The translations under genes and the position numbers were made by a program. DNA of 64,000 nt from a virus (taxonomy: Duplodnaviria; Caudoviricetes), in IMG/VR virus record IMGVR_UViG_3300049988_000245, positions 201,896 through 265,895 of that record; one strand, 5' to 3'. The notes beneath the pieces are model-generated. The model saw nothing but the letters and a program-made list of their open reading frames with translations, was not told the origin of the DNA and made no database searches. Position 1 is the stretch's first letter, and every line of letters begins with the position of its first letter. Shown here in pieces: positions 27,082 to 51,326 of this stretch.

Positions 27082-27417
27082 ATGTATTTATTGTATAAGA
27101 AATTTGCTTACAAGTATGATCAAGATATGTTTATCAGATATCTTGTGGATCATCCCTTAGCCAGTCATGCCGTACTTGGTGGGACTTATGCGTTGGTTCT
27201 GACGCCCATCGTTGGGCCGGTCACCGCCGCGCTAATCGTCTCGGTTCTGTTTTTCGGCCGTGAGGCCGGTCAACGCGAGCACCAGTTGAAGCGTACCCTC
27301 TCGCCCATCCGGGCCTGGATCGGCGCGTCCTTCTGCGTCGGCTGGACCCGGATGAATTGGCTCGAATGGCTGACCCCGACGTTATCCGCCATCGGAATCG
27401 CCCTCCTACTCCGTTAG
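27082..27417 (+). CDS. Small multi-TM membrane protein
   Basis: Hydrophobic segments; FFGREAGQ motif. Confidence 0.7.
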   Translation: MYLLYKKFAYKYDQDMFIRYLVDHPLASHAVLGGTYALVLTPIVGPVTAALIVSVLFFGREAGQREHQLKRTLSPIRAWIGASFCVGWTRMNWLEWLTPTLSAIGIALLLR

Positions 27418-27881
27418 AGCTTCGGGAACACACTGCAAACGGCTTCCACGAACTCGTCGTGGTCCGTGTACACGGGAATACCCTTGCGCTTGCAGACGAT
27501 GTGAACGTTTCCTGATCGCCAATACTCCTTCGGGCAGAATACGATCGCCTTTTGCGGGGTCCCATAGAGGCCGAGTTCCAGCAGGGTGATCGGTGCCTCC
27601 GAATCTGCCGGAAAATAGAACACGATGGTCTCGGCCGTTTCGAGGTAGTCGAGTTCCCACTTCACCTGATCGGCGAACGACGGGTGGTCCGGGCTTTGGT
27701 CCCAGGTGGCGTCCCAATCGTCGCGACGTGGGTTCAGCACGGTGACCTTGCGGTCTTCGAGGGCGTCCTCGATCCGCTTCTGCCAGGGGATGGCGCGGCC
27801 CTGGTCGATCGCCCCGGCCAGGAACAGCGACGTGGTCACCTGGGAGATGTCGGGACGTTGGGGTGGCTTGAACGATTTCAT
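27414..27881 (-). CDS. Nucleoside 2-deoxyribosyltransferase-like protein
   Basis: LFLAGAI...WQKRI...VLNPRRDDW...QVKWELDYLETAETIVFYF...SEAPITLLELG. Confidence 0.9.
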   Translation of the reverse strand: MKSFKPPQRPDISQVTTSLFLAGAIDQGRAIPWQKRIEDALEDRKVTVLNPRRDDWDATWDQSPDHPSFADQVKWELDYLETAETIVFYFPADSEAPITLLELGLYGTPQKAIVFCPKEYWRSGNVHIVCKRKGIPVYTDHDEFVEAVCSVFPKL

Positions 27882-27926: not shown

Positions 27927-29567
27927 TTAGGCGGCGAGCGGGAGGTTGCGAGCGAGGTACTTCACCGAGGGCTCACGCACCTCGTCGAAGGTGTACTCGC
28001 GCTTCAGGTCACCATTCCGGAAGGTCTCGACGAGCGAGTTCCGCCAGTGGTTGCCGTCGAGCGGCAGGGTTTCCCAACCACCCTCGTGCACCAGGGCGAG
28101 CTTGCCCCGCTTGGAGCGCTTGCCCGGATCGGTCTTCGGGTCCTTGAAGACTTCTCTCCATTCCCCGTTGATCTTGATCGCGGAGCACTTCATCGCGAAC
28201 TTCATGTCATCGCGATTAACCTTCTGGAGCAGACCCCCGCCCATACCGAACGCGATATTGTCGGTGGCGAAACCAGCGTCGGTGAGATTCTGGAGAATCT
28301 TCTCGATCACCTTCTCGTCGTCGATGCCATCGCCCTGGATCACCCGGACGTGGTTGAGCACCTTGTACCCCTTGGAGTTGATCGTGTAGCCGAACTTCTC
28401 GGCCAACCGCTCAACCGTCTCCACGGGGATCGTGTAGACGTTGCCGGAGTCGGGGCGAATGATGACGGTCGCGCCCGAATCGATCACGTGCTGGCGAAGC
28501 TCGGTCCCCCAGATGTTATCGACTGCGTTAAAAAGGTCGTACGAGTCGGACACCACCGCCACGTATGAGCCCGGACGGGCGAACTGCCGGAGCATGTTCC
28601 GGTAGGCGTCCACCTCGGCTTCCTTGCCCCACGAGGTGATCGTGGAGTGTTCGGCCGCCGGGATCGAGAACCCCGGCATGATCGCCGAGTAGTACTTACG
28701 CGCCGCGCGGATCGCGCTGAGCGTATCGGTGCCCTCGAAATTGATCATGTGGGCGATGCCACCGATCGCGGCCGACTCTTCCGACGACGTCCCACGGGCG
28801 CCGAAGTCGTGCAGGCGCGAGGGAAGCAGAACCTCGGGGATGTCCGAAGTCAGGTCGAGGAACCGCTTGATGACCTTCTTGGCGGCGAACGACTTGCTGG
28901 CCACCGTGGTGGGGAACCAGATCGCACGCAGCAGGGCGGTCTCCAAGAACGAGGTGAGCCAGAAGCAGTTCGGATCGGTGTTGACGATCGTCAACAGGAC
29001 GTTCTTCACGGTGATGACCGAACCCTCGGGGGCCGAGTGGATCGAGATCGGCAGCTTGCCGCCGAGCTTATCGACGATGTACTGCCAGCCCGCCCGGTTG
29101 AACGGAACCCTGTGCTTCTCGTAGACCTCGGCGGCCTCCTCGATCATCTCCTGGGTGACGCGAACGGTGAGGTATTCTTTCGCGAACATCTGGAAGCCCG
29201 CATACACGGCCACGTCGTAGAGGCCGCCACGAGATTCGATGTACGAGTACACTTCGGTCGTACCCGGCGGGTACTGGAGGAAGTGGCTGGCCTTGTACGA
29301 ATCACCATTGAGGATGATGTTGTGCCGACCCTTGGCCTGCTTGATGTACCGCTTCCGGGCGGCCTTCACCTGCTCGCGCGCCATCAGGGCGAACATCTCG
29401 GCGAAGTTGGTACACTCCCACACTTCCTTGGAGAAGATGCCGTCGCGGCGACCGCCAGTGGTCTGTGCTTCGAGCCACTGACGGGTCGAGGAGTATAGAA
29501 TCCCGTTATCGAGGAACTGATTCGGGGGGAACTGCGAAAACGCGTTGGTCTGTGCTTCGTTTGACAT
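27927..29567 (-). CDS. nadV: Nicotinamide phosphoribosyltransferase (NAMPT) with N-terminal extension
   Basis: DSYKASHFLQYPP, LHDFGARG, PAAEHS, VVSDSYD, IIRPDSG, VIQGDG, AFGMGGGLLQKVNRD motifs. Confidence 0.95.
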   Translation of the reverse strand: MSNEAQTNAFSQFPPNQFLDNGILYSSTRQWLEAQTTGGRRDGIFSKEVWECTNFAEMFALMAREQVKAARKRYIKQAKGRHNIILNGDSYKASHFLQYPPGTTEVYSYIESRGGLYDVAVYAGFQMFAKEYLTVRVTQEMIEEAAEVYEKHRVPFNRAGWQYIVDKLGGKLPISIHSAPEGSVITVKNVLLTIVNTDPNCFWLTSFLETALLRAIWFPTTVASKSFAAKKVIKRFLDLTSDIPEVLLPSRLHDFGARGTSSEESAAIGGIAHMINFEGTDTLSAIRAARKYYSAIMPGFSIPAAEHSTITSWGKEAEVDAYRNMLRQFARPGSYVAVVSDSYDLFNAVDNIWGTELRQHVIDSGATVIIRPDSGNVYTIPVETVERLAEKFGYTINSKGYKVLNHVRVIQGDGIDDEKVIEKILQNLTDAGFATDNIAFGMGGGLLQKVNRDDMKFAMKCSAIKINGEWREVFKDPKTDPGKRSKRGKLALVHEGGWETLPLDGNHWRNSLVETFRNGDLKREYTFDEVREPSVKYLARNLPLAA

Positions 29568-29617
29568 GATCAAAGCTCCTTTGATCGTTGTACTGTGGCC
29601 GGTCTATCCAGCCACAG
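29568..29617 (-). ncRNA. Structured leader: AUAGA-loop hairpin plus SD-sequestering hairpin
   Basis: CUGUGGCUGG-AUAGA-CCGGCCACAG, 6 nt, GAUCAAAG-GAG-CUUUGAUC, then AUG. Confidence 0.7.
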
Positions 29618-29635
29618 GGAGAAAAGTCGATTTGT

Positions 29636-30859
29636 TTATTCGTCGTTCGGGTTGGCGGTGAGCGCCTGGATGATCGAGTAGTGATCCTCGAACATGAACT
29701 CCGGCGAGATCGCACCAGGGCCTTTGAGGGGCCACCACTTCACGCGATGGACTTCCGATTCCTGGCCCTTGATCCGGGGAAGGCGTACGCGCTCACCGGA
29801 CTTGCGGGGAGGGGTCTTGAGGTTGATCAGCGCGCAGTGCGTGATCGTCCGACCGCGACTGGAGCGGTGTACCGAGTCGAAGTAGCGAATCTTCCGAGTG
29901 CGGCCCCGGAGAATCCCTTCGGGAACCTCGATCGAGGTCTCTTCCTTGAGTTCCCGGTAGATCGCATCTTCGATGCGCTCGTGGTCTTCGAGGAAGCCGC
30001 CGGGAAGCGCCCAAAGGCCCTCGCCGGGCATCGACTTGCGCTGAACCAGCAGAACATGCCCGGCCTGGATCACGCAGGCATCGACGGTCTGGAAGATCGG
30101 CGGATACTGAGGCTTGGCCCGAAGCCAACCCAGAAGCTTCTGCACCCAGCGGTGCTTCAGCCAGGACGCCGGGACCAGCGACGTGTCGATGATCGCGTAG
30201 CCCTGCTTGTACTTCTGCACGTGCAGGTATTCGGCTTTGACCTTCTCGTACGCCTTCGGCTGATCGATCTCGAATCTCTCCAGCCAGTTGATGATCGGCT
30301 CTGGCAGAATCGACGTGTCCAGCGGGTCGGAGGTGAGGAAGTACTTCTCGCGCAGCGGGGTCGCTGACAGATTCGTCGTATTGACCACCGCAACTTCTTC
30401 CCAAAGCGGAAACATGTTGAGGTAGAACGACGTGCCGTCCTTCTTATGACCGACGAGACCAATCTGAGCGTCTTCGTCGAGGCCGAAGTGCAGTCGGGCT
30501 TCCTCGGCCTGTTCCTGAACGTTCAGAATCCAGGCGTCGTTGTTGTAAGTGGAATCTTCCAGCGGAAGGCAGATCACCCGGCTGCGGAGGTTTTCCGGCA
30601 GGGCCGACATGATCATTTCGGCGCGTTCTTCCCAGGAGAATGGGTTGAAGTACGTCCGGGGCTGATTGGCCGAGCCGAGAAGGACGGCGAGGAATTCGCA
30701 GGACTTCAAGCCCTGGATAATCGCGTCGAGGTGGCCGAAGTGGAAGAACTGGAAACGCCCGATAAAAATCCCGAGGGCGACGGATGCAGGTTTGATAGAT
30801 GCAGGTTTGATAATAGAGGGCGTGCCTGTGAGGCGCCCCTTCAGGGTCGTGGTAGACAT
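29636..30859 (-). CDS. nadM: Bifunctional NMN adenylyltransferase / Nudix ADP-ribose pyrophosphatase
   Basis: GRFQFFHFGH (HxGH), NPFSWEERAEMI, PLEDSTYNNDAW, GHKKDGTSFYL; YPPIFQTVDA...LPGGFLE...RELKEET Nudix box. Confidence 0.95.
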   Translation of the reverse strand: MSTTTLKGRLTGTPSIIKPASIKPASVALGIFIGRFQFFHFGHLDAIIQGLKSCEFLAVLLGSANQPRTYFNPFSWEERAEMIMSALPENLRSRVICLPLEDSTYNNDAWILNVQEQAEEARLHFGLDEDAQIGLVGHKKDGTSFYLNMFPLWEEVAVVNTTNLSATPLREKYFLTSDPLDTSILPEPIINWLERFEIDQPKAYEKVKAEYLHVQKYKQGYAIIDTSLVPASWLKHRWVQKLLGWLRAKPQYPPIFQTVDACVIQAGHVLLVQRKSMPGEGLWALPGGFLEDHERIEDAIYRELKEETSIEVPEGILRGRTRKIRYFDSVHRSSRGRTITHCALINLKTPPRKSGERVRLPRIKGQESEVHRVKWWPLKGPGAISPEFMFEDHYSIIQALTANPNDE

Positions 30860-30860
30860 T

Positions 30861-30911
30861 GCGACTAGCTCCTAGTTCGCGGCTGGCACCTTGGGGTCTG
30901 TCCCCTCGGCG
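30861..30911 (-). ncRNA. Structured leader: ACAGA-loop hairpin plus SD-sequestering hairpin
   Basis: CGCCGAGGGG-ACAGA-CCCCAAGGUG, 6 nt, GCGAACUAG-GAG-CUAGUCGC, A, AUG. Confidence 0.7.
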
Positions 30912-30917
30912 TATGTC

Positions 30918-30923
30918 TATTTA
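30918..30923 (-). promoter_or_regulatory. T4-type late promoter core TAAATA for the NAD operon
   Basis: TAAATA about 6 nt upstream of the first leader hairpin. Confidence 0.55.
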
Positions 30924-31049
30924 CTCACAACGAGCATAATCGGTCCATTAAAAAATGACGATTCGTCAAAAATCTTTTCGTCACACGAATTTCGTGTGGC
31001 CAAGGGAGGAATTTAACCGTACGAATCGGTTTCACGCTGGGGCACCCCG

Positions 31050-31499
31050 ATGAACACTGATCCGTTGAACGTTCTGCCGAGCGAACTCGGCGAAAACCTA
31101 TTTCTGGTTTTCATCGTCGGTCCGGTCATGCACGGCGTGGTCGGGCTCGATCGGAACCAGCTATCCATCGCGATGAAGCAGGTGGAAAAGTACATCGCCG
31201 ATAACCGCCAGCCCGGATCAGAGCCTCAGGACGTTGCGCTCACCTCGATGTTTCAGACCCTCGTGTCCTCACCGGGCAACCAAGGGGCAATGGCGCATGC
31301 GGCGATCGTCGCGACGTGGCTGGTCCTTAACCATCCGGCACCCGAGACCCACGTGACCCCAGAGACGTTAAAGTGGGTCACTTTCGGGGCGAAAGAAGAC
31401 GCCTACGTGTATGACGGGGGCGAGGACGATGCGGCGTTCGAACTCTCGCGGGTGTCAATCATGGCGGACTGCGTCGGTATCCAGCCGGTTCGCCACTAG
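31050..31499 (+). CDS. Hypothetical protein
   Basis: 149-aa ORF. Confidence 0.7.
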   Translation: MNTDPLNVLPSELGENLFLVFIVGPVMHGVVGLDRNQLSIAMKQVEKYIADNRQPGSEPQDVALTSMFQTLVSSPGNQGAMAHAAIVATWLVLNHPAPETHVTPETLKWVTFGAKEDAYVYDGGEDDAAFELSRVSIMADCVGIQPVRH

Positions 31500-33868: not shown

Positions 33869-34130
33869 GCGAACAATCTATCTGAAACTTGATCCGCTCC
33901 CCCCAGGTTCAGCGCGCGGTGCGGCGCAATCCAAGATACTGCAATTTGTCTTCGACCTGGGTGTGTACGCGGAGCGAACCCCGTTCACGGTTCTCCGGGT
34001 GGAGCAGGTTGATTGGTGGGTCACTGCGATTATAATCAACGCGGATGACAACATAGCGTATCTCGCACTTCGATTGAAGTACGGTGAGATGATGATCGAC
34101 TTCCTTCAAGCTGAGAACGAGATTTTCTGA
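33858..34130 (+). CDS. Hypothetical protein, divergent FKLRW-like
   Basis: AIIINADDNIAYLALRLKYG. Confidence 0.7.
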   Translation: MTTERTIYLKLDPLPPGSARGAAQSKILQFVFDLGVYAERTPFTVLRVEQVDWWVTAIIINADDNIAYLALRLKYGEMMIDFLQAENEIF

Positions 34131-34651
34131 TGAAGATCGAATACAAGACCGGCGACCTCCTGGCCGGACCCGAGCGGTTCATCTGCCACGGTTGCAACGC
34201 TCAAGGGGTGATGCGTTCGGGAATCGCCGCTCTAATTCGAGACATCTACCCGAACGCCTACACGACATATCGGGCGCATTATGACGAGCACGGCCTCGCG
34301 TTGGGGCACACGATCTTCGTCGAATGCAAGCCCACGGATTCCCGTTACCGCGCTCGCACGGTGATCGACGCGATCACGCAGGAGCACTATGGGCGCGATC
34401 CCAACCGGGTCTACGTCAGCTACGAGGCGATCGAGAAGGCCATCAAGAAGATCGACGACGAGGCGCGCCTTCGCCAGGAGACGCCGTCCCGCGCGCGCAG
34501 CCATGGCCTGATCGAAAGCGTTGGTTTTCCGCTGATCGGTGCCGGACTGGCCAATGGGTCGTGGAAAATCATCTCATCAATCATCGAAGAGCATTCCACC
34601 GACTTCCAGCCGGTCGTCTACCTGTTCGACGGAGTCATGCCGACAACATGA
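34130..34651 (+). CDS. Macro domain protein (Poa1p/DarG-like ADP-ribose processing)
   Basis: IEYKTGDLL...HGCNAQGVMRSGIA...GFPLIGAGLANGSWKII. Confidence 0.92.
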   Translation: MKIEYKTGDLLAGPERFICHGCNAQGVMRSGIAALIRDIYPNAYTTYRAHYDEHGLALGHTIFVECKPTDSRYRARTVIDAITQEHYGRDPNRVYVSYEAIEKAIKKIDDEARLRQETPSRARSHGLIESVGFPLIGAGLANGSWKIISSIIEEHSTDFQPVVYLFDGVMPTT

Positions 34652-41834: not shown

Positions 41835-44800
41835 ATGGACAAGCGTCGTTTTATTCAGCAGCTTCCTGAAGTACACAACACCGAGACTCTGAAGAAGTTC
41901 TTCGGGGCCACGGTGGACCAGATTTTCCAGCCGGGTTCTTCGGAGCAGCTTAGCGGATACATCGGTTCGAAGCCTGCATACTTTGATTCGGAGAAGGATT
42001 TTTACCTGACCGAGCCAACAGCGATTCGTGCCGCGTATCAGTTCGATCCTGCCATGGTGTCCCAGGCGGAAAACGGCGACGTTACGAACATTCTCACGTA
42101 CGACGACTTTATGGCGTATCTCCGGGCTGAGAACGCGATCACCGTCGATCACGACCGCATGTTCGGCGACACCTCCTACGGATGGGTGCCACCGGTCGAT
42201 CTGGATAAGCTCGGAAACTATCGGCAGTATTACTGGTTCGGTGATCAGCCAAACCTCCTACCTCCGGTGGTGCTCAGCGTGAGCAACACCACGTATACCG
42301 CTGACGGCCAGACCCACATCTTCGAGATGCCCTCCGCGATCGATGGCGTGTCGGCCGATCGCGAGACCCCGGCGGTGTTCGTCGATGGCCTTCCCGTGGA
42401 GATGCAGGTTGTCGGCCAGTCGGTCGCGCTCGTCGAGACCCCTGGTGCGGGCGCGTCCATCTGCGTGTTCCGTTACGCCGATCTTACGGCGGTGCTCGAC
42501 GGGCAGGTAAACATCGATCCGCGCCTGTTTAATCCGGCCCTACCGATGGATCGTCTAACCTCGAACATGCGCCTACGACTGGAGGACGGTATCGCGTTCT
42601 TCCAGGGCTTCGGGCGCATGCCGTACGAGACCGTCTTCATCAAGATTCCCCGCCTGTGCCAGGAACGCTTCCAAGTGCCCTGGGACGAGTACACACGCCC
42701 GTCTGACTTCTTCGTGGAAGGTGTTGGCTCGCGCATCGTCGTGGCGCCCTACCCCGCGCGTATGACGTACAAGGAGCATGACGCAACCTACACGGTGATC
42801 AACCGCCGTGACATCGCCCGTTCGCCCTGGGTGGTGAACAACTTCTGGGTCCACGAATCCGCATTTCGTTGGGCCGAGAAGAGCTTCCCGTCGCGTCGCG
42901 CCAAGCGCCCGATCGTGGAATTCCTGCCCAACCTCGAACTCATGAACTACGGGCTCCGTCCACTGGAGACCATCACTGGCACCCTCACGGGTGATCCCAT
43001 GTACGTGCCGATCCTGCTCGACAAAGTCGATGCGACGAAGGGCATTTCCGATTGGGACGTGTACCCGTTCGACACCGAGACGTACGAGTCCAGCGGCATT
43101 CGCCCGATCCCGCTGATACAGACCAACGGCAAACTCGTCGGCCAGCTTTTCGTCGATGGCGGCAAGATGCTGAACTTCGGCGACCGTATCCTCGTGATTC
43201 AGAACAGCTACCCCGAGCTTAGCGGGTCGATCCTGCGCGTCCGTCTCGGTACGCAGCCGATCACCGTAACCCTGCCCGATGGGACCACTCAGACGCAGAC
43301 GCAAAGCGTGCTTGTGCTGGTTCCGGAGAAGGCCGCGATCCCCGGCGATACCGTTCGTCTGGAGCGCGGGCGCCTCGTCCCCTGGGATAAGGCCGCAGGC
43401 ACGGAAAACTGGTTCATCTCTCACAACGGCAGCGACCGCCTGCCTTGGGAATTTCTGTCCGAGGCCGTCGAGTACCATTTTGATGGCACCGAAGGCGGAG
43501 ACGGGTCCCTGTGGCGTGAGTCCCAGGCGCCGCATGCAGACCGTCGCGAGCCGCAGTTCGCTCTCTACACAGACGAGAAAGTGCGTTTGGACCGCCTACC
43601 CAATGGATCGTTCCTCGGCAACCGTCTGTTTGGCTACACCCCGGCGAACGAAGAGACGGGCCGTCTCGACGCCGCCCTTGGTCAGTACGTGATCTATGAT
43701 TCGAAGGATGCGATTCAGTTCCGCTTCGATCAGGCAACCGAGCGCTACACCGCGAACGGTCAGCCCGTTGTGGGCTTCCAGTACTATCGCGTGTACGGAC
43801 AGAACGGTCAGCCTGATACCTACTCGAACTCCTGGCACGTCACGGGGGAGCGTTCGCACCAGACCCTCACCAACGGGCTATTTTCGACCCCTCAGAATCT
43901 CGTGGCCAACCCGAACAACGAAGAGGTCTCTACCGTATCGCGTCGCGACTGGCTTGAGAACTTCGCCAACGTGTTCATCCGCCAGGAGGGCTTTACCGGC
44001 TCCCCCTACAACATCAACAACTGGCGCGATTCCGCCCAGACCCCCGGCCTCGGCTTCAACGGCCCGGTCTGGCAGATGGGCCACGACTACGCGGTGGGTG
44101 ATACCTGTAAGCACCTCAACAAGGTCTATCGCTGCACGCAAGCGCACACATCTAGTATTAGCTTCGACGTGCGCTATTGGGCGATTCGCCCGACCCACCA
44201 GATCGTGCAGAACAAGTCACCGCTTCTACGCACGATGCTGCTCGCCTCGGACAAGCGTTTCGACTACCTCGACGCGGTTCGCTACCTCGATGCCGAATAT
44301 GCTCGATTCCGCAACAAGTTCCGTGCTCAGACGATCGAAGTCCGTCGTACCGGCCAGTTGACCGATGCGAACGACCACGATGTATGGGTTGAGACGATTC
44401 TCAACAATCTCAAGTTCACCAAGACGAACGACTTCCCGTTCTCGCTCTCCAGCATGGCGGGCGGTCAGTACTTCATTCCGCCAACTGCCGCTCAGATGGG
44501 CCTGCTCAACACATACGAGCCCACCTACGAGTACGATGACACCTATACTCCGGCGGCCCTGTTCCTGCGCGGCCATGACGGTTCACGCACGCCCGTGGTG
44601 GGCTCGTTCGAGGACGACATCCTGCTTGCCCTTGAGCGCCGTATCTGGGTGAACATCGTGCCGCAGTTCAAGTCCGAAGCCAAGCGCCCGTTCGACTTCT
44701 TTGGCCTGATCGACGGGCGAAACCGTGGTGACGGGAACGGCGACGAGACCAGTGCGGGTGATCCGAACCCGTGTGATAACGATCCGAATCCAATTGAAAC

Positions 44801-47800
44801 CGGCCGCACTACCTATTCTCTGGCCGAAGTTGTGCGCGTCTACACGCCAGTCTTCCTGCGCTACGCTCAATTGAACGGGATCGATTACCGTTCGCACAAG
44901 GACTACGTTGGCACTGATCCGTTTACGTTCAACTACCGGGACGAGAAGGATCGCGACGGAACCAAGATGCCGGGCAACTGGCGTGCAATCTACCGCTACT
45001 ATTACGACACCGATCGTCCTCATGCCTGCCCTTGGGAGATGCTTGGGTTTGGCCAGAAGCCGGTTTGGTGGGATGTGGAGTACGGTGTTGCCCCCTACAC
45101 GAGCGGCAACGTCGCGATGTGGGAAGACCTCCGCGATGGGCGTATCCGCCAGGGCGTCCGCGCGGGCATCGACCCGCTATTCGTCCGCCCCGATCTGTTC
45201 GACGTCCTTCCGGTGACCGAGGATGGTCGCCTGCGTGATCCGTTGCAGATCGGTATCTTCGCCCAGGCCCCGTCCCCGGAGCTTGCCGCGCGTGATTGGC
45301 TCGTCGGTGATGGCGGCCCCGGTGAGCAGTTTTGGATGAACTCTGCGAGCTACCCGTTCGCGAAGTCTCAGATCGGCTACCTCCTACGCCCGGCCGAGTG
45401 GATCGAGGTAAATTGGGATTCGGAGTACTTCCGCTTCCTCGAAGATGGGCAGGCCATCAATACGCGTTCACACAACCGCACTCGTGCGGCCGAGAACGTC
45501 GTTCACGGCGAGACCATCGACGCCCGCGCGGGAACGCGCTTTGCCATCCTCGGCGTGCAGCAGTGGGTCTCCGACCTTATGGCGTCGCGCGCGCAGTCAC
45601 CGTCCCTGCTGGGTTCGGCCCTGCGTCGCATGCGCGTCCAGATGATGCACAAGATGGCTGGATTCACCAAGGCGGATAACCTGCGCGTGTTTGCGGACAA
45701 CTTCGGGATCATCCCGGAGGAGGACGTGAGCGTGATCCTGCATAATTCTCCGCCAATCCGCGAATCCGTCTACTCCGGTGTGATCATCGAATGGACCGGT
45801 GACGGCTATCAGGTGATCGGCTACGACACGGTCAAGGAAGGCTTCTGCATCAATAAGGGCGACGAGACCTCGAAGCCCATCACGATCTCCCTTGGCGATG
45901 AGCCACAGGTTTACGAGTGGCATTCGGGAATCTACTATGCGCTCAACACGCTGGTGGATTATCGCGGCTCGACCTACCGGGCGATTCTCGCGCATACCGC
46001 CTCGGCCGTGTTCGACGAGGAGTTCTGGACCCCCGAGCCGATCCGCCGGACCCGTTTTCCCAAGGTAACGGTATTCTCGCGCGGCGAAGGCACACTCACG
46101 TACGTACCCTACTCGACCGTGTTTAAGACCTTGCAGGACGTGGCCTCGTTCCTGTGGGACTATGGTCGCGCGCTCGAAGACGACGGATTCGTGTTCGACT
46201 ACATCGATCCGAAGACCGGCGATGTGGTCAATTGGGAACAGGCGATTCGCGAATTCCTGGCGTGGGCACAGACCGATTGGCAACCCGGAAACTTCATCGC
46301 ACTCTCACCGGGTGCGAGCCAGTTGAAGTACATCACCAAGCACGGTGTGGTGTACAATGTCGAAGAGACCTCCAACGGCATCTATGGGCTGCTGAACCGC
46401 ACAGGTACGCCGCTCCCGACCCGTCAGACCTTCGTTTCGCGTCTCGACGAAGAGACCAAGGTGATCACGATCTCGAACGATCTGTTCTGTGCGCGTCTGC
46501 GCGTGGGTGAGATCGAGCACATCGTGTTGTTCTCGAACAAGACTATCTTTGGCGATGTCATCTATGCGCCGCTTCTGAATCTGCGTCAGTCTCGCCTGCG
46601 CCTCCTGGGTATGCGGACGAAGAATTGGACCGGTCGTCTCGATGCGCCCGGCTACATGGTCGAAGGAAACACGACGCAGCCGAACTTCTGGCGCGCGGCC
46701 GAAAACCTTCGAACGATGTTCGACGTGGAAGGCTCGGAGGATCGTGACCTTCGTGACTTCTCCCGCCACCTCCTGGGATACCAGAAGCGCCCGTATCTGG
46801 ACAACCTGCTGGTCTCCGAGACTGAGCAGTTCGAGTTCTACCAGGGCATGATCAAGCAGAAGGGCACGCCCGGTTCGTTTGAGAAGCTGACCCGTTCGCA
46901 GTTGATCGACCGTCAGTCGGACCTCGCATTCCTTGAGGAATGGGGATTCAACGTCGGTCGCTTCGGTGCGGTAGACAAGAGCCGCCGCGTATCGTTCATG
47001 CTCACCAGAACGGATATGCGCTCGAATCCACAGTTGATCGAGTTCGGTCGTGACAACCAGTTCGACGCGATCGTTGGTCTCCCCGATGATTCGTCCCGTT
47101 GGGTGGAGAAGCCCGCAAACGTAAATCAGGTGTTCCCAGAGCGTCAGCTTATCGTTGACGTGTCCGGTTCGGGCTCGCCCATCACCCGTCCGTACGCGCG
47201 CGATCTCCACACGTCCGGTCCCGTGCGGATCAGCGAAATCACCCACACGATTGCGAACCCGGCACTCGCCGACAAGCTGTTCACCGATGTGACCGCGCGA
47301 GGCGACGAATTCTCTCCGAACGATCGCATCTGGGTGTATGAACTCGGGTTGTCCGAGCGTCGCTGGAGTGTTTTCCGGTTCGATCTCGTGGGCAAGAACG
47401 AGGCAACCCCGCTGGTGGCCGTCGAGGCAATGGACGCGGGTGACGACAACACGCCGTTCTCCGGCCTGACCCGTTTGACCTTCCTCCAGTTCCACGGCCT
47501 CGACGAGGGCGATATCGGAAGCCTACTCCTGATTCCAAACTCCATCAGTGGAGATTCGGATGTGGAAGGATTCCATCAGATCATCGCGATCGAAGACGCC
47601 TACTCGATTGTCATCCCGTATGCGATTGATCCGAATTACAACTACAAGCAGCCATTCTGCATGGTTCTGCGCTCAGTTCGATTCCGCACGATTGCGGATC
47701 GGAATCTGTTCGATACCAAGTACGGTTTCGTCGCGGGCGAACTCGCCTACGTCGATCATGTGCCGGGCTTCGCCGGTTGGGTGGTGTTCCGCTACGACGG

Positions 47801-50800
47801 TTCGGCATTCAACCTGTACCGGCAGCAGCCCCCGCGCATCGACTCCGATCGCCTGCGCAACACCCTGATCTATGACCTCAACACGAAGGTCACCGATGCG
47901 TCCCTTCAGGCGCAGCCGCTGAGCTATGACGAATTCACCGTCGTTGATCCAATCTCCGGTAACGTCTCGGGTGAGGCTGAGCGGGAAATCACCTTCCGGG
48001 TGGATTACGACCCGGCACAGTACATCGAGCTTTCTGAACAGTGGGGCGCATCGCACGTCGGTGAACTCTGGTGGGACACGCTGACCTCCATCTTCCTCGA
48101 TACCAGCACGGATATCGTGACGACCACGGATGATCCGCGTCGCCTTGAGCGCGAGATGACCTACCGCTCGCAGAATTGGGGCAAGGTCGCTCCGGGTTGC
48201 TCCGTCGATGTCTACGAGTGGACCCGTTCGTTCGACCCGCCCACGGCCGAGCAACTGGTTCGTAACCGCACGACTGATTTCACGTTTTTCAACGAGTTCG
48301 ATCCGGCTCTGAACAAGATCGTCGTGGCCTACTACTTCTGGGTCCGTAATCCCACGGTGACCCCGAACGTGAAGGGTCGTTCGCTCTCGGCCGCCCAGGT
48401 GGCCAAGATGATCGAGGACCCGCGCGCGGCGGATGTCGCCTGGATCGCCCCGATCGCCCCCAACGCGATGCTCCTTTGCAACGCGGAGGAATTCCTCAAC
48501 GACACCGGCACGGTAGTGCAGTTCGAACTCACTGATGACGCCTATGATGGCGTTAACCATGAGCAGTTCGCGCTCGTCCGCAAGGGCGACCCGGATAGCC
48601 TGCCGCCGAAGCCGCTCCTCACGACGCTGCGCAACTCCATCACGGAGTTCGACGACTTCATTCGTCCGGTGCCGGAAGGTGGCCTCGGTGCGTTCGGTTC
48701 GGTTGGGGCAACCCGTCGTTCGCGTCGCACGATGATCGCCAATGGTCGCTCGGGTGTGCTCGCTGCGCGCCAGTCGTTCATCACCAAGCTGAATGAAATT
48801 CTTGGGCGTTCTCCGCTGCTCGTGGATCAGCCGTCCGCGCTGGAAGAGCTTACCCTGGAATCCCCCGTGTACGAGAAGCTGATCTGGAATCAGCCGCCCG
48901 GCACGGATTGGATCGACGTGCCGCCGCGCGGCTCGTATGACTTCGTCGTCAACGGCCTCGAAGAGCGCCGCGTCCTCCTTACGACGGCGGAATACCTTGC
49001 CGCGTGCGGATTCTCCGGATGGGATACGTTCAAGTACGACACCACCGGCTGGGATTACGACTTCGGCGTGACCGTGGCGGACCTCGCCAAGAACCGCCTG
49101 CCGCGCGTGCTCATGACCAATTACACGGCCGAGCAGCCCGGTTGGAGCATCTGGGAGGGCAAGGTCTCGGTTCGCGGCCCAACCCCGCAGACGGTTATCA
49201 CGATCACCGATACGCCGCTGTCCAACATCGGTCCGATTGCCCGCGACGACGCGTTCTCGGTCACCTCGGGCCAGTCGTGGACCCTAACGGCTGCGTCGCT
49301 GTCGAACAACGATACCGATCAAGACAACGACATCCTCACGGTGGTCAGCGTTGGACCGGCCCCAGAAGGCTCAGGCGTGGTCACTCAGGTGGCGCCCGGC
49401 ACGTGGCTGTACCAGAGCGCCCCCGATGTGATCGGACGCGTCCTGATCCCCTACGTGGTCGCTGACGGCAAGGGTGGCGTGGCAAGCGCATACGCGATCT
49501 TCACCCTGACTCCGCCGGAGGTGATCAAGGCGGTCCAAGACACCTACTCAGCCGAAGTGAACACTCCTCTGGTGATTCGCGTTTCCGACCTGCTTGCGAA
49601 CGATATCGGTGATGACATCGTAGTGGTGTCGGTGACCCAGCCGTTGAACGGTGGATTCGTGACGTTCGAGAACAGTGCGGTTGTCTACAATCCTCCGGTC
49701 AATTCGCCGGAAACGGATGACCTATTCACCTACACGATTCGGTCCGCCTCCGGCCGTCTCTCGAACACCACGGTTCTCGTCACCTTGGCGGCGTCTCGGA
49801 TCGCTGCGGCAGATGACTACACCGCGACCAACTACGGCGCGACCCTCACGATTCCCTACACGACCATCCTCGCCAACGATTCCGGCGAAGGTATCGTGGT
49901 GGATTCGATCGGGGTGCCCCTGTATGGCGCCGCCGTCATGCGCGATGATGGAATTCGCTATACCGCTCCGGCGGTGAAGACTACGGGTGATCGAATCAAC
50001 CCGGTAGCCGATGCGATCCCCTACACGATTCGTGACAAGTTCAACCAGACGACCTCCGCCAAGGTGGTGATCAGCTTTATCAGGCCGCGCATCGAAGCGT
50101 TCAAGGATGAGACCTCGGTCAATTATGGGGCCAAGACCAATGTGGGGTTCTCCACAATCCTGTCGAACGACGTGGGCCAAAACATCATCGTAACCGGTAT
50201 CTCGAAGGCTCCCGCGTATGGGACAGCCCGGATGACACCGGTCGGCATCGAGTATATCGCTCCGGCGTACTCGATCAAGGATGGGTTTACACCTGTAAGT
50301 GACGTGCTCAAGTATACAATCGTCGATCCTTTCGGTCAGACTTCTGAGGCTGAGATTCGTTTCAACTTCACTTCGCCCCCACGGATCAATGCGGCTGACG
50401 ACGAGTACACGATCAATTACGGTGCCTCGCTCAACCTCCCCGCAAATTCCGTCATGGCAAACGACGCAGGGCGCGACATCCGTATCACCGCGATCGGTCA
50501 AGCCCGCTATGGCGTGGCTACGCTGACGGATACGGGAATCTCATACGTGGCTCCAGCATTCAGTCCAGCCGGTAATCCCCCAAGCGACACCTTCACCTAT
50601 TCGATCGCCGACACGTTCGGTCAGACCGCTCAGGCGTCAATTGTCGTGAACTTCCTGCGCCCGGCTGGTATCAAGGCAAACGACGACTACTTCAGCGTAG
50701 TTCGCAAAAGTCGAAGTGTTATTCAAGCAAACGATGACGTTCTCATCCTCGGAAACGTAGTTGGGCAGGGTCGTCGTGGCACGAAGGTGGTTCACGGCAG

Positions 50801-51326
50801 CGATACAGCTTCCAGTGTAATTAGCGGGAACACGCTAACGGTGCTCGGTGTAACTTGTGAGTTTAATCCAGAGTCTAACCTTAGTTCTGCACTGAGTGCG
50901 TTTAATAGTAGCTTTGATGCGATTCAGGAAGGTCTATTCATGCTGATCACTAACGATCAGGACTTGGAGATTTTTGATCCGTCGCTTCCTGGCTCTGTTA
51001 GCCTTGTGATTCGAGCCCCGGTTCCGCCTACTGGATCATTGCCTGCGGACCTATTCGGAGCTACCGTGACCACAACGGAAACTTCTTTGCCAAGCTCAGT
51101 CGAGTTTACGTATGATCAGTTAATGGAGAACGATACGCATACATTGCCAATCGAAGTAATCTCGGTAGGTGTCGAGGGCTTGCGAATGTTCCCCTTGCCT
51201 AACGGGCGTGGTTACCGCTATGTTGGACTTGGATATCAAGAGGCGTTTACCTTCCCGTATACGATTCGCGATACGTCCGGAGCAACATCTACGGCGAACG
51301 TTACGATCTATCCCGGTCTAGGTTAA
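41835..51326 (+). CDS. Giant baseplate/virion protein (3163 aa) with carbohydrate-binding-like modules and C-terminal cadherin/Ig-like repeats
   Basis: Uninterrupted ORF; PPVDLDKLGNYRQYYW N-terminus; two W-x4-Y...YRC/AxxAHT modules; six AxDD-type Ig repeats. Confidence 0.9.
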   Translation: MDKRRFIQQLPEVHNTETLKKFFGATVDQIFQPGSSEQLSGYIGSKPAYFDSEKDFYLTEPTAIRAAYQFDPAMVSQAENGDVTNILTYDDFMAYLRAENAITVDHDRMFGDTSYGWVPPVDLDKLGNYRQYYWFGDQPNLLPPVVLSVSNTTYTADGQTHIFEMPSAIDGVSADRETPAVFVDGLPVEMQVVGQSVALVETPGAGASICVFRYADLTAVLDGQVNIDPRLFNPALPMDRLTSNMRLRLEDGIAFFQGFGRMPYETVFIKIPRLCQERFQVPWDEYTRPSDFFVEGVGSRIVVAPYPARMTYKEHDATYTVINRRDIARSPWVVNNFWVHESAFRWAEKSFPSRRAKRPIVEFLPNLELMNYGLRPLETITGTLTGDPMYVPILLDKVDATKGISDWDVYPFDTETYESSGIRPIPLIQTNGKLVGQLFVDGGKMLNFGDRILVIQNSYPELSGSILRVRLGTQPITVTLPDGTTQTQTQSVLVLVPEKAAIPGDTVRLERGRLVPWDKAAGTENWFISHNGSDRLPWEFLSEAVEYHFDGTEGGDGSLWRESQAPHADRREPQFALYTDEKVRLDRLPNGSFLGNRLFGYTPANEETGRLDAALGQYVIYDSKDAIQFRFDQATERYTANGQPVVGFQYYRVYGQNGQPDTYSNSWHVTGERSHQTLTNGLFSTPQNLVANPNNEEVSTVSRRDWLENFANVFIRQEGFTGSPYNINNWRDSAQTPGLGFNGPVWQMGHDYAVGDTCKHLNKVYRCTQAHTSSISFDVRYWAIRPTHQIVQNKSPLLRTMLLASDKRFDYLDAVRYLDAEYARFRNKFRAQTIEVRRTGQLTDANDHDVWVETILNNLKFTKTNDFPFSLSSMAGGQYFIPPTAAQMGLLNTYEPTYEYDDTYTPAALFLRGHDGSRTPVVGSFEDDILLALERRIWVNIVPQFKSEAKRPFDFFGLIDGRNRGDGNGDETSAGDPNPCDNDPNPIETGRTTYSLAEVVRVYTPVFLRYAQLNGIDYRSHKDYVGTDPFTFNYRDEKDRDGTKMPGNWRAIYRYYYDTDRPHACPWEMLGFGQKPVWWDVEYGVAPYTSGNVAMWEDLRDGRIRQGVRAGIDPLFVRPDLFDVLPVTEDGRLRDPLQIGIFAQAPSPELAARDWLVGDGGPGEQFWMNSASYPFAKSQIGYLLRPAEWIEVNWDSEYFRFLEDGQAINTRSHNRTRAAENVVHGETIDARAGTRFAILGVQQWVSDLMASRAQSPSLLGSALRRMRVQMMHKMAGFTKADNLRVFADNFGIIPEEDVSVILHNSPPIRESVYSGVIIEWTGDGYQVIGYDTVKEGFCINKGDETSKPITISLGDEPQVYEWHSGIYYALNTLVDYRGSTYRAILAHTASAVFDEEFWTPEPIRRTRFPKVTVFSRGEGTLTYVPYSTVFKTLQDVASFLWDYGRALEDDGFVFDYIDPKTGDVVNWEQAIREFLAWAQTDWQPGNFIALSPGASQLKYITKHGVVYNVEETSNGIYGLLNRTGTPLPTRQTFVSRLDEETKVITISNDLFCARLRVGEIEHIVLFSNKTIFGDVIYAPLLNLRQSRLRLLGMRTKNWTGRLDAPGYMVEGNTTQPNFWRAAENLRTMFDVEGSEDRDLRDFSRHLLGYQKRPYLDNLLVSETEQFEFYQGMIKQKGTPGSFEKLTRSQLIDRQSDLAFLEEWGFNVGRFGAVDKSRRVSFMLTRTDMRSNPQLIEFGRDNQFDAIVGLPDDSSRWVEKPANVNQVFPERQLIVDVSGSGSPITRPYARDLHTSGPVRISEITHTIANPALADKLFTDVTARGDEFSPNDRIWVYELGLSERRWSVFRFDLVGKNEATPLVAVEAMDAGDDNTPFSGLTRLTFLQFHGLDEGDIGSLLLIPNSISGDSDVEGFHQIIAIEDAYSIVIPYAIDPNYNYKQPFCMVLRSVRFRTIADRNLFDTKYGFVAGELAYVDHVPGFAGWVVFRYDGSAFNLYRQQPPRIDSDRLRNTLIYDLNTKVTDASLQAQPLSYDEFTVVDPISGNVSGEAEREITFRVDYDPAQYIELSEQWGASHVGELWWDTLTSIFLDTSTDIVTTTDDPRRLEREMTYRSQNWGKVAPGCSVDVYEWTRSFDPPTAEQLVRNRTTDFTFFNEFDPALNKIVVAYYFWVRNPTVTPNVKGRSLSAAQVAKMIEDPRAADVAWIAPIAPNAMLLCNAEEFLNDTGTVVQFELTDDAYDGVNHEQFALVRKGDPDSLPPKPLLTTLRNSITEFDDFIRPVPEGGLGAFGSVGATRRSRRTMIANGRSGVLAARQSFITKLNEILGRSPLLVDQPSALEELTLESPVYEKLIWNQPPGTDWIDVPPRGSYDFVVNGLEERRVLLTTAEYLAACGFSGWDTFKYDTTGWDYDFGVTVADLAKNRLPRVLMTNYTAEQPGWSIWEGKVSVRGPTPQTVITITDTPLSNIGPIARDDAFSVTSGQSWTLTAASLSNNDTDQDNDILTVVSVGPAPEGSGVVTQVAPGTWLYQSAPDVIGRVLIPYVVADGKGGVASAYAIFTLTPPEVIKAVQDTYSAEVNTPLVIRVSDLLANDIGDDIVVVSVTQPLNGGFVTFENSAVVYNPPVNSPETDDLFTYTIRSASGRLSNTTVLVTLAASRIAAADDYTATNYGATLTIPYTTILANDSGEGIVVDSIGVPLYGAAVMRDDGIRYTAPAVKTTGDRINPVADAIPYTIRDKFNQTTSAKVVISFIRPRIEAFKDETSVNYGAKTNVGFSTILSNDVGQNIIVTGISKAPAYGTARMTPVGIEYIAPAYSIKDGFTPVSDVLKYTIVDPFGQTSEAEIRFNFTSPPRINAADDEYTINYGASLNLPANSVMANDAGRDIRITAIGQARYGVATLTDTGISYVAPAFSPAGNPPSDTFTYSIADTFGQTAQASIVVNFLRPAGIKANDDYFSVVRKSRSVIQANDDVLILGNVVGQGRRGTKVVHGSDTASSVISGNTLTVLGVTCEFNPESNLSSALSAFNSSFDAIQEGLFMLITNDQDLEIFDPSLPGSVSLVIRAPVPPTGSLPADLFGATVTTTETSLPSSVEFTYDQLMENDTHTLPIEVISVGVEGLRMFPLPNGRGYRYVGLGYQEAFTFPYTIRDTSGATSTANVTIYPGLG
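49230..51323 (+). repeat. Six tandem cadherin/Big-like coding repeats
   Basis: PIARDD, IKAVQD, IAAADD, IEAFKD, INAADD, IKANDD, each followed by LxND...YTI/V. Confidence 0.85.

What the first reader, a model, noticed from the sequence alone, without database searches (positions are those of the whole stretch)
29568..30911. Duplicated two-hairpin RNA leader in front of both NAD-salvage genes: candidate new riboswitch or translational operator
Seen: both leaders have hairpin 1 closed by GG-AYAGA-CC (CUGUGGCUGG-AUAGA-CCGGCCACAG; CGCCGAGGGG-ACAGA-CCCCAAGGUG), a 6-nt linker, then hairpin 2 that buries the SD with AG-GAG-CU at its apex (GAUCAAAG-GAG-CUUUGAUC; GCGAACUAG-GAG-CUAGUCGC), directly followed by AUG. 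Stem sequences differ completely while pairing, loops and spacing are kept, which is the pattern expected of a selected RNA structure. In the nadM leader hairpin 1 begins right at the predicted late start site. Inference: translation of both enzymes is off by default and is switched on by a ligand (NAD+, NMN, ADP-ribose, PRPP) or by a protein reading the AYAGA loop, so the counter-defence responds to NAD depletion. I do not recognise it as the NAD+-I or NAD+-II riboswitch class.
Basis: partly seen in the sequence, partly recalled or inferred. Interest (0 to 1): 0.85.

Follow-up and report, generated by a model that had tools for sequence, protein, structure and literature searches.

The report
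Conserved leader RNA of NAD-salvage genes
Both NAD-rebuilding genes of this jumbo phage are preceded by the same small two-hairpin RNA, which turns out to be a widespread, uncatalogued control element found almost only in front of nadM, nadV and a few neighbouring NAD genes in many phages and some bacteria; what reads it is still unknown.

Summary
Both leaders exist as described: nadV leader at 29565-29617 and nadM leader at 30857-30911, minus strand.

They belong to a real, selected RNA structure. A covariance model trained only on nadV leaders finds the nadM leaders. Across 101 sequences 92% of cells pair, and 15 of 16 pairs show changes on both sides.

The core is a hairpin whose G-A(U/C)AGA-C cap is nearly invariant while its stem varies freely. 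An A/C-rich linker and a short hairpin carrying the Shine-Dalgarno sequence follow, then AUG. The cap sits 35-44 nt before the AUG.

The motif is absent from Rfam 15 and I found no paper describing it.

It occurs only at nadM and nadV in this 266-kb phage record and in five whole bacterial genomes. In a complete 518-kb phage it lies only in the NAD gene cluster. Elsewhere it also precedes pnuC and small unknown ORFs.

It spans phages with local G+C (the motif itself) of 23-74%, several proteobacterial lineages and a cyanobacterium.

The effector is not established. I favour a protein operator read by the operon's own enzyme, PyrR-like (about 0.4), over a minimal riboswitch (about 0.3). "Off by default" holds only moderately here and weakly family-wide.

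This scan has already noted the same motif on other DNA (e1-5231886, e1-5345379 and several first-reader notes).

The parts
30887..30911 (-). nadM leader hairpin 1: 4-bp outer stem, 2x2 purine internal loop (GA/AA), 4-bp inner stem GGGG/CCCC, pentaloop ACAGA closed by G-C
   Evidence: Sequence and fold. Model hits. Natural variants keep the structure: the loop changes C>U, one G-C becomes G.U, and the internal loop changes A>G.
30881..30886 (-). nadM leader linker CCAGCC; in the family this linker is G-poor and A/C-rich
   Evidence: A natural 1-nt deletion is tolerated at 30882.
30861..30880 (-). nadM leader hairpin 2: 8 bp with a bulged A and a GAG triloop, carrying the AGGAG Shine-Dalgarno; -6.7 kcal/mol
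   Evidence: Covariation of the HP2 pairs.
29636..30859 (-). nadM-Nudix gene: bifunctional NMN adenylyltransferase / ADP-ribose pyrophosphatase, 407 aa
   Evidence: Pfam PF01467 and PF00293. PDB 2qjo and 2qjt. Homologues.
29593..29617 (-). nadV leader hairpin 1: continuous 10-bp stem, pentaloop AUAGA closed by G-C; -17.4 kcal/mol; no U-tract follows, so it is not a terminator
   Evidence: Model hits.
29587..29592 (-). nadV leader linker UACAAC
29568..29586 (-). nadV leader hairpin 2: 8 bp, GAG triloop, AGGAG Shine-Dalgarno, with AUG directly after it; -6.5 kcal/mol
27927..29567 (-). nadV gene: nicotinamide phosphoribosyltransferase, 546 aa, with a clade-specific N-terminal extension of about 65-75 aa
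   Evidence: Pfam PF18127 and PF04095. PDB alignment starts at residue 78-82. The extension is absent from distant motif-bearing NadV proteins.
30918..30947 (-). Promoter-like region of nadM: TGGACC, 18 nt, TAAATA. It contains the palindrome TATGCTC-N5-GAGTAAA (30920-30938), a likely DNA operator and so a separate control layer.
   Evidence: Alignment with relatives shows the arms conserved in sequence. The palindrome is unique in the record. The sigma-70 scan does not call it.
27414..27881 (-). Third gene of the cluster: nucleoside 2-deoxyribosyltransferase-like, with no leader motif in front
   Evidence: Pfam PF15891. No model hit.

Best explanation
The two leaders are copies of a conserved cis-acting RNA, here called the nadM/nadV leader motif, that controls translation initiation of NAD-salvage genes.

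Shown:
- The structure is real.
- It is specific to NAD genes.
- The HP1 cap G-A(U/C)AGA-C is nearly invariant and sits 35-44 nt upstream of the AUG.
- HP2 carries the Shine-Dalgarno sequence and ends at the AUG.
- Neither the sequences nor the covariation show an alternative pairing or a pseudoknot linking HP1 to HP2.

Inferred:
- HP1 is the docking site for a trans-acting factor.
- That factor must be present wherever the operon travels.
- It is most likely one of the operon's own enzymes. I favour NadM-Nudix, whose Nudix domain is the same fold that senses ADP-ribose in NrtR. NadV is the alternative.
- When not occupied by substrate or product, the factor binds the cap. Together with HP2 it keeps the 30S subunit off the start site.
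- The NAD-pathway metabolite bound by the enzyme sets how much of it is free to bind RNA.

This is the logic of PyrR, a phosphoribosyltransferase that binds a capped hairpin with a purine-rich bulge before three successive pyr genes. It is also the logic of ThrRS on thrS. In the phage it would limit the PRPP and ATP cost of the NAD reconstitution pathway NARP2.
For: The structure is real:
- A model built from nadV leaders alone recovers the nadM leaders of all eight relatives as the best non-self hits.
- On 17 sequences, 95.9% of cells pair and the covariation score is 0.726 against 0.203 in shuffles (0 of 500 reach it). Sliding the partners gives 28-40% paired.
- On 101 sequences, 92.3% of cells pair and 15 of 16 pairs change on both sides.

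The cap is nearly invariant over 101 sequences: G 98 of 99 lettered, A 97, Y 92, A 100, G 100, A 99, C 98 of 99 lettered.

The motif is NAD-specific:
- Two hits only in the own 266-kb record.
- Only the nadM and nadV leaders in five whole bacterial genomes of 2.7-8.8 Mb.
- Only the NAD cluster (nadM, a 50-aa ORF, pnuC; the nadV copy falls below the whole-genome threshold) in a complete 518-kb phage.
- In 151 sampled genomes the only hits are one nadM leader and one nadV leader.
- The downstream genes of 236 hits are 111 nadM, 98 nadV and 27 others. The others are pnuC, recurring small ORFs and cut ends.

Features typical of a protein site:
- Only about 7 conserved unpaired or closing nucleotides outside the Shine-Dalgarno sequence.
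- The purine-rich internal loop is optional: 64 sequences unpaired, 25 fully paired.
- The cap-to-AUG distance is tight. The variance of the total is 8.1 against 23.6 for the sum of its components.

The factor must travel with the operon. The motif is kept in phages whose motif G+C runs from 23 to 74% and in distant bacteria.

Co-occurrence with NadM:
- Every motif-bearing record that could be checked also has NadM.
- Three complete NadV-only phages lack the motif: FADO and K, with no NadM match, and ICP1, with only a marginal 15-bit match.
- Among 80 nadV loci the motif tracks one NadM clade. With NadM at 35% identity or more, 57 have it and 2 lack it. With NadM at about 31%, 2 have it and 16 lack it.

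Precedents and context:
- The PyrR precedent is described in PMC7430163.
- NARP2 overproduces NAD and consumes PRPP (bioRxiv 10.1101/2024.02.11.579819).
Against: - No RNA-binding activity is known for NadM or NadV, and nothing here tests binding.
- The association with one NadM clade can be explained by common descent of operon plus leader.
- Motif-positive NadM proteins are not notably basic. They differ from motif-negative ones mainly by a roughly 20-aa inter-domain segment.
- Autoregulation of metabolic enzymes through RNA is rare in bacteria, whereas riboswitches are common before metabolic genes.
- HP2 is weak in most members, so simple occlusion by the hairpin is not enough on its own.
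- In some genomes only nadV carries the motif (G006 and RsoM2USA).
Confidence: 0.4

Rival explanations
1. It is a minimal riboswitch. The RNA itself binds an NAD-pathway metabolite (NAD+, NMN, ADP-ribose, nicotinamide or PRPP) at the AYAGA cap. The cap may dock onto HP2, which would stabilise or loosen the Shine-Dalgarno hairpin.
For: - The motif stands only before genes of one metabolic pathway, across several proteobacterial lineages, a cyanobacterium and many unrelated phages.
- It also precedes pnuC, which gives it the regulon shape typical of riboswitches.
- A metabolite is the simplest factor that is present in every host.
- Guanidine-II shows that hairpin loops alone can sense a ligand (my own knowledge).
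- The motif matches no Rfam family.
- No paper was found.
Against: - Very few conserved nucleotides are available for a binding pocket.
- The internal loop is dispensable.
- No alternative pairing, pseudoknot or loop-loop complementarity couples HP1 to HP2. I inspected the 17 close sequences by eye, and the positional composition shows nothing either.
- The linker varies from 0 to 12 nt.
- The motif was not found before prs-nadV in three NadV-only phages.
Confidence: 0.3
2. It is a ligand-independent structural leader. HP1 protects the mRNA or insulates the start region. HP2 presents the Shine-Dalgarno sequence in its loop. The element would tune expression constitutively and was simply inherited together with the operon.
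For: - In most members the GGAG/GGAU lies in the HP2 loop and HP2 is weak.
- In the nadM leader HP1 lies close to the likely 5' end.
- The region after the AUG is G-poor, as in well-translated starts.
Against: - A stabilising hairpin does not need an invariant 7-nt cap kept across the bacterial lineages sampled while every stem position changes.
- The element is not used before any other gene of these large phages.
- It has been placed before additional NAD genes.
Confidence: 0.12
3. HP1 is read by a conserved host component, such as a host RNA-binding protein, an RNase or the ribosome itself, rather than by an operon product or a metabolite.
For: - The fixed 35-44 nt distance from the cap to the AUG places the cap at the 5' edge of the 30S footprint (the footprint size is my own knowledge).
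- The R-N-A-G-A pentaloop resembles the GNRA-like boxB loops bound by arginine-rich peptides (my own knowledge).
Against: - A general host factor does not explain restriction to NAD genes.
- The cap lacks the GGA that CsrA needs, so CsrA is excluded.
- The host range, from a cyanobacterium to Burkholderia to hosts of AT-rich phages, leaves few shared specific RNA binders.
Confidence: 0.1
4. It is a DNA-level element: an operator palindrome for NrtR or another repressor, or a hairpin promoter.
For: NrtR operators are known before nadM-nadV (PMC2330246). The hairpins are inverted repeats in the DNA.
Against: - The arms vary while complementarity is kept, and the non-palindromic centre is what is conserved. 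This is the opposite of a dimeric DNA site.
- G.U pairs are frequent on the sense strand only.
- All hits lie on the coding strand directly before start codons.
- The NrtR core GT-N7-AC in a 21-bp palindrome does not fit.
Confidence: 0.02

Closest known systems
PyrR binding loops of the Bacillus pyr operon (Rfam RF00515)
   Same: [quoted passage not shown]
- It is repeated before successive genes of one operon.
- It is read by a phosphoribosyltransferase-family enzyme whose RNA binding is set by pathway nucleotides (PMC7430163).
- Some members here even have an AGAGA cap, which also occurs inside the PyrR consensus ARUCCAGAGAGGYU.
   Different: - No match to the Rfam model.
- A different cap consensus.
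- No anti-terminator or terminator arrangement; the motif acts at the ribosome binding site.
- NadV is a type II phosphoribosyltransferase, unrelated in fold to PyrR.
- Binding has not been tested.
E. coli thrS translational operator (ThrRS autoregulation)
   Same: Hairpins upstream of the Shine-Dalgarno sequence have a conserved loop and are read by the enzyme that the mRNA encodes, so that 30S binding is blocked.
   Different: The thrS loops mimic a tRNA anticodon arm, a natural substrate of the enzyme. No such mimicry is evident here, and the motif is shared by several different genes.
NAD+-I (nadA motif) and NAD+-II (pnuC motif) riboswitches
   Same: They are cis-regulatory RNAs before NAD biosynthesis or transport genes. 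Class II also controls a Shine-Dalgarno sequence, and one copy here precedes pnuC.
   Different: - No match to any Rfam model, even at E up to 10 in the window and up to 1 in ten loci.
- No bulged tandem domains and no pseudoknot.
- Different target genes (nadM, nadV) and different taxa.
Guanidine-II (mini-ykkC) riboswitch
   Same: Two small hairpins lie before a start codon. Conservation is concentrated in the loop and closing pair, and the stems covary freely.
   Different: In guanidine-II the two loops are identical ACGR tetraloops that kiss each other. Here the loops differ (AYAGA and GAG/GGAGU) and are not complementary.
Lambdoid boxB hairpins (N antitermination)
   Same: A G/C-closed hairpin carries a purine-rich pentaloop of the form R-N-A-G-A (boxB-left is GAAGA).
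   Different: There is no boxA and no antitermination setting. Position 1 is A, not G, in 97% of members. The motif lies at a fixed distance from a start codon, and no N-like protein is known here.
NrtR operators before nadM-nadV (Rodionov et al. 2008, PMC2330246)
   Same: The same target operon and the same physiological aim: control of NAD salvage, with ADP-ribose as the signal.
   Different: NrtR sites are 21-bp DNA palindromes with conserved arms. This element is an RNA structure with variable arms.

Membership tests
NAD+-I riboswitch (nadA motif) | Match to the Rfam covariance model; two tandem bulged stem-loop domains with conserved internal-loop nucleotides | tested here: not met
   cmscan of the window at gathering score, of 29400-31100 at E up to 10, and of 20 related loci found no hit. 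The internal loop here is variable or absent.
NAD+-II riboswitch (pnuC motif) | Match to the Rfam covariance model; a pseudoknot that engages the Shine-Dalgarno region | tested here: not met
   No Rfam hit. I saw no conserved complementarity between the HP1 loop and downstream sequence when inspecting the 17 close sequences, and the positional composition shows none.
PyrR binding site | Match to the Rfam model with consensus ARUCCAGAGAGGYU; a PyrR protein in the genome; a terminator/antiterminator or Shine-Dalgarno-occluding alternative fold | tested here: not met
   No Rfam hit. The cap consensus is G-AYAGA-C. I did not search for PyrR in the phage record. The resemblance is one of architecture only.
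Guanidine-II riboswitch | Two hairpins that both carry ACGR tetraloops | tested here: not met
   The loops are AYAGA pentaloops and GAG/GGAGU. No Rfam hit.
CsrA/RsmA translational operator | A GGA motif in the loop of the upstream hairpin as well as at the Shine-Dalgarno sequence | tested here: not met
   The HP1 loop has no GGA in any of 101 aligned members. Only the HP2/Shine-Dalgarno region contains GGA.
NrtR DNA operator | A 21-bp palindrome with arms conserved in sequence and the core GT-N7-AC | tested here: not met
   The arms vary with compensatory changes and sense-strand G.U pairs, and the centre is conserved and non-palindromic.
Intrinsic terminator / attenuator | A G+C-rich hairpin followed by a U-tract | tested here: not met
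   UACAACG and CCAGCCG follow HP1. The terminator scan reports neither hairpin.
Riboswitch (generic) | Direct, selective binding of a small molecule by the RNA, with a change in expression | not testable with these tools
   This needs in-line probing, ITC and reporters. Only the distribution and anatomy could be assessed.
Autogenous protein operator (PyrR/ThrRS type) | Specific binding of the operon-encoded protein to the leader, with repression in trans | not testable with these tools
   There is only indirect support. The motif co-occurs with NadM and with one NadM clade, and it is absent from NadV-only phages.

The most novel reading that the evidence does not exclude
The motif is a third, minimal class of NAD-pathway riboswitch. 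A hairpin cap of seven nucleotides senses NAD+, NMN, ADP-ribose or nicotinamide directly. Phages carry it together with NARP2, so that their anti-defence NAD rebuilding is throttled by the very metabolite pool that host immunity attacks.
Probability: 0.28. Interest if true: 0.92.

Novelty: new variant of a known kind. Interest (0 to 1): 0.78.

Why it matters
**Link to phage counter-defence.** NadV plus NadM-Nudix is the phage NAD reconstitution pathway 2 (NARP2). It defeats NAD-depleting defence systems but overproduces NAD and drains PRPP (bioRxiv 10.1101/2024.02.11.579819).

**What a dedicated leader implies.** A conserved leader on exactly these genes means the pathway is regulated after transcription, in phages and in bacteria alike. 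The element is small enough to test in days.

**Payoff under each reading.** If it is NadM or NadV, it is a new moonlighting RNA-binding enzyme, a second PyrR-like case.

**Practical use.** In either case the motif is a compact marker for NAD-salvage regulons. It flags unannotated small ORFs as candidate members of the NAD and anti-defence toolkit.

Tried and rejected
1. A single-protein scan of IMG/VR for close NadM relatives found none. Relatives had to be taken from Logan, ENA and JGI contigs through the search for homologous proteins.
2. Exact-pattern scans of IMG/VR for the two HP2 sequences gave four unrelated places without HP1 or NAD genes. These were chance Shine-Dalgarno palindromes.
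3. MAFFT misaligned HP2 between the two leader types, so I used model-guided alignments instead. Pair counts on those lean towards the model. The cross-detection by the nadV-only model is the independent check.
4. The N-terminal extension of the window's NadV looked like a possible RNA-binding add-on. I rejected this because distant motif-bearing NadV proteins lack it.
5. I looked for a pseudoknot between the cap and sequence around the AUG. A GUCU after the AUG in the window's nadM pairs with AGAC, but it is not conserved: only 31% of members have U at +3.
6. The negative correlation between HP1 arm length and linker length (r = -0.63) is partly built in by how the fold assigns the stem end. 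Only the small variance of the total distance is used.
7. I searched for a record with the motif but without NadM and found none. The one candidate, L292, has NadM 23 kb away. The other two candidates are fragments of 4-9 kb.
8. The comparison of motif-positive and motif-negative NadM clades showed only a roughly 20-aa inter-domain segment and no basic patch, so it is inconclusive.
9. No RNA sequencing run holds the phage, so transcription starts and processing could not be read.
10. I first suspected an N4-like virion RNA polymerase hairpin promoter because of the 3163-aa ORF. I rejected this because that ORF is a virion structural protein with Ig-like and cadherin-like domains.
Full report
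**Setting.** The window is the last 64 kb of a 265,895-bp IMG/VR virus record. CheckV rates the record 57% complete, and its G+C is 56%. It is a jumbo phage. Its near-identical DNA turns up in leaf and silage metagenomes from 15 studies.

On the minus strand lie three genes:
- nadM-Nudix at 29636-30859, 407 aa.
- nadV at 27927-29567, 546 aa.
- A nucleoside-deoxyribosyltransferase-like gene at 27414-27881.

NadV plus NadM-Nudix is the pathway called NARP2 in phages.

For nadV, HP1 is a 10-bp stem with an AUAGA loop at 29593-29617. The linker is UACAAC. HP2 is an 8-bp stem with a GAG triloop at 29568-29586, and the AUG follows directly.

For nadM, HP1 is 4 bp, a 2x2 GA/AA internal loop, 4 bp and an ACAGA loop, at 30887-30911. 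The linker is CCAGCC. HP2 is 8 bp with a bulged A and a GAG triloop at 30861-30880. One A and then the AUG follow.

The predicted minimum-energy folds are these hairpins, with z = -5.3 for nadV and z = -2.7 for nadM. The separate hairpin energies are -17.4 and -6.5 kcal/mol for nadV, and -12.3 and -6.7 kcal/mol for nadM.

**Is it selected?** The closest NadM relatives are 57-71% identical. They sit on eight metagenome contigs with the same gene order. Seven of these contigs keep both leaders, and the eighth keeps the nadV leader. Different stem sequences still pair.

A covariance model built from the nine nadV leaders alone finds the eight nadM leaders as the best non-self hits, at E 5e-6 to 0.02. 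This is an independent demonstration that the two leader types are one motif.

On the resulting 17-sequence alignment:
- 95.9% of cells pair, against 64.6% in shuffles.
- 13 of 16 pairs change on both sides.
- Sliding the partners by 1-3 columns drops pairing to 28-40%.

Natural variants of this very phage in other metagenomes behave the same way in the nadM leader. The loop changes C to U (ACAGA becomes AUAGA). One G-C becomes G.U. The internal loop changes A to G. One linker base is lost. The nadV leader is unchanged.

G.U pairs on the sense strand, together with variable arms around a conserved non-palindromic centre, rule out a double-stranded DNA operator.

**How far does it reach?** I collected nadM loci at 36-44% protein identity:
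- 80 from metagenomes.
- 80 from IMG/VR.
- 80 from one-per-species bacterial genomes.

I also collected 80 nadV loci from IMG/VR.

The model hits most of them. Every hit with E of 1 or less lies on the coding strand, and the hits end at the start codon of nadM or nadV. The G+C of the motif itself runs from 23% to 74%.

Bacterial carriers include:
- Burkholderia and Ralstonia.
- Oceanobacter, Microbulbifer, Marinobacter and Neptuniibacter.
- Pseudoalteromonas, Moraxella, Psychrobacter and Budvicia.
- Acetobacteraceae MAGs and a Gloeomargaritaceae cyanobacterium.

On 101 sequences, 92.3% of cells pair and 15 of 16 pairs show double changes.

The consensus is as follows:
- The closing pair is G-C in 96 of 97 sequences with letters at both positions.
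- The loop is A(97) Y(92) A(100) G(100) A(99).
- The stem positions vary freely.
- The 2x2 internal loop is purine-rich, but it is fully paired in a quarter of members.
- The linker is G-poor.
- HP2 is built on AAGGAG or AAGGAU.

The first loop base lies 35-44 nt before the A of the AUG in nearly all of the 175 non-redundant copies in which the loop could be placed, with a mode of 38.

**Specificity.** The motif occurs only twice in the own record. Whole-genome searches gave the following:
- Five bacterial genomes give only the nadM and nadV leaders.
- A complete 518-kb phage gives hits only in its NAD cluster: before nadM, a 50-aa ORF and pnuC in the whole-genome search. The nadV copy is seen only in the locus search.
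- An even sample of 151 genomes of the class gives two hits. One is the known nadV leader of Burkholderia. The other is a nadM leader in a genome whose nadV lies just downstream.

Of the 236 aligned hits in the two large alignments:
- 111 precede nadM.
- 98 precede nadV.
- 27 precede something else: pnuC, three recurring families of unannotated 105-125-aa ORFs inside NAD clusters, and cut or doubtful cases.

Not every nadM-nadV operon has the motif. Among cultured phages:
- RpAliso has it before both genes.
- RsoM2USA has it before nadV.
- Mendera has it only weakly.
- KVP40, PG07, Ccr2, Domovoi, Cp1R7A-A1 and Asfd_1 lack it.
- The prs-nadV phages FADO, K and ICP1 also lack it.

**Known or new?** Rfam 15 has no match at gathering score or at permissive E-values. 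This holds in the window and in 20 related loci. Full-text searches for a riboswitch or RNA motif tied to nadV or NAMPT in phages found nothing. The NARP paper and a survey of viral NAD systems do not mention one.

Earlier notes of this scan describe the same motif in other genomes. I treat them as leads. My own tests agree with them on structure and distribution.

**Mechanism.** What is shown is a structured leader in cis, at a fixed distance from the start codon, restricted to NAD-salvage genes. The effector is inferred.

It must be available in hosts as different as a cyanobacterium, Burkholderia and the hosts of AT-rich phages. That leaves three possibilities: a metabolite, a product of the operon, or a universal host component.

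In favour of a protein:
- The information sits in about seven nucleotides of a hairpin cap.
- The internal loop is optional.
- The linker varies.
- Nothing couples HP1 to HP2 by alternative pairing.
- The cap keeps a fixed distance to the ribosome site. This is the anatomy of PyrR, ThrRS, coat-protein or boxB sites.

PyrR is the closest analogue. It is a phosphoribosyltransferase that binds a capped hairpin with a purine-rich bulge before three successive genes, under nucleotide control.

In favour of NadM in particular:
- The motif was never found without it.
- NadV-only phages lack the motif.
- The motif tracks one NadM clade.

All three of these points could also come from common descent.

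In favour of a riboswitch:
- The regulon has a pathway-specific shape.
- Its spread crosses several bacterial lineages and many phages.
- Riboswitches are common before metabolic genes, whereas enzyme-RNA autoregulation is rare.

My estimates are:
- An operon-encoded protein reader: 0.4.
- A minimal riboswitch: 0.3.
- A constitutive structural leader: about 0.12.
- A host factor: about 0.1.
- A DNA element: 0.02.

The window's HP2 hairpins, at about -6.6 kcal/mol, would lower initiation moderately. Family-wide, HP2 averages -4.2 kcal/mol and usually shows GGAG or GGAU in its loop. The direction of regulation is therefore open.

**A second layer.** The nadM promoter region carries a palindrome, TATGCTC-N5-GAGTAAA. 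Its arms are conserved in sequence in relatives, and it is unique in the record. It looks like a DNA operator for a clade-specific repressor, separate from the RNA motif.

Noticed in passing
window 30920-30938 (-), within promoter-like 30918-30947: A 19-bp palindrome, TATGCTC-N5-GAGTAAA, lies between a TTGAC-like -35 and a TAAATA/TATAAA -10 in front of the nadM leader. Its arms are conserved in sequence in relatives L002-L006, and it is unique in the 266-kb record. It is a likely DNA operator for an unknown repressor. Two relatives have an HTH_31 gene nearby, but the window does not.
   Followed up: partly
window 30956-30968 and 30982-30998: The divergent intergenic region holds two further perfect palindromes, TGACGAATCGTCA (flanked by T/A runs, terminator-like in both directions) and CACACGAAATTCGTGTG. 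Their function is unknown.
   Followed up: no
window 27414-27881 (-): A nucleoside 2-deoxyribosyltransferase-like gene (PF15891) follows nadV without a leader motif. Homologues sit inside the NAD clusters of several unrelated phages (L301, L305, L306, L312, L320), so it is a recurrent but unexplained member of NARP2 neighbourhoods.
   Followed up: partly
window 27927-29567 (-), residues 1-80: NadV has an N-terminal extension of about 65-75 aa compared with solved NAMPT structures. The extension occurs only in the window's close relatives and has no family match.
   Followed up: partly
window 34130-34651 (+): A macro-domain ORF (PF01661) lies 3 kb from the NAD operon. This is further ADP-ribose-related content in the neighbourhood.
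   Followed up: no
L350:3622-3948, L161:2103-2477, L307:3665-4021, L294:5684-5929, L295:3569-4036: In AT-rich phages, unannotated small ORFs inside NAD clusters carry the same leader motif. Three families of 105-125 aa recur: one Cys/His-rich, one with a GEDPNCDFGGHHY...WGAGGDI core plus a coiled coil, and one starting MSKATTFTIKK. Two single ORFs of 81 and 155 aa carry it too. None has a Pfam match. They are candidate new NAD or anti-defence genes.
   Followed up: partly
L348:12574-13236: A pnuC gene (NMN_transporter, PF04973) in a complete 518-kb phage is preceded by the motif, which extends the regulon to uptake.
   Followed up: yes
L005:1780-2358: In one relative a GIY-YIG (SegE-like) homing-endonuclease gene is inserted on the opposite strand between nadM and nadV. 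The nadV leader is retained intact after it.
   Followed up: no
window 41835-51326 (+): A 3163-aa virion structural protein has bacterial Ig-like, cadherin-like and CBM_5_12 domains. Beside it lie a 1104-aa baseplate wedge protein and a 1240-aa paralogous structural protein.
   Followed up: no
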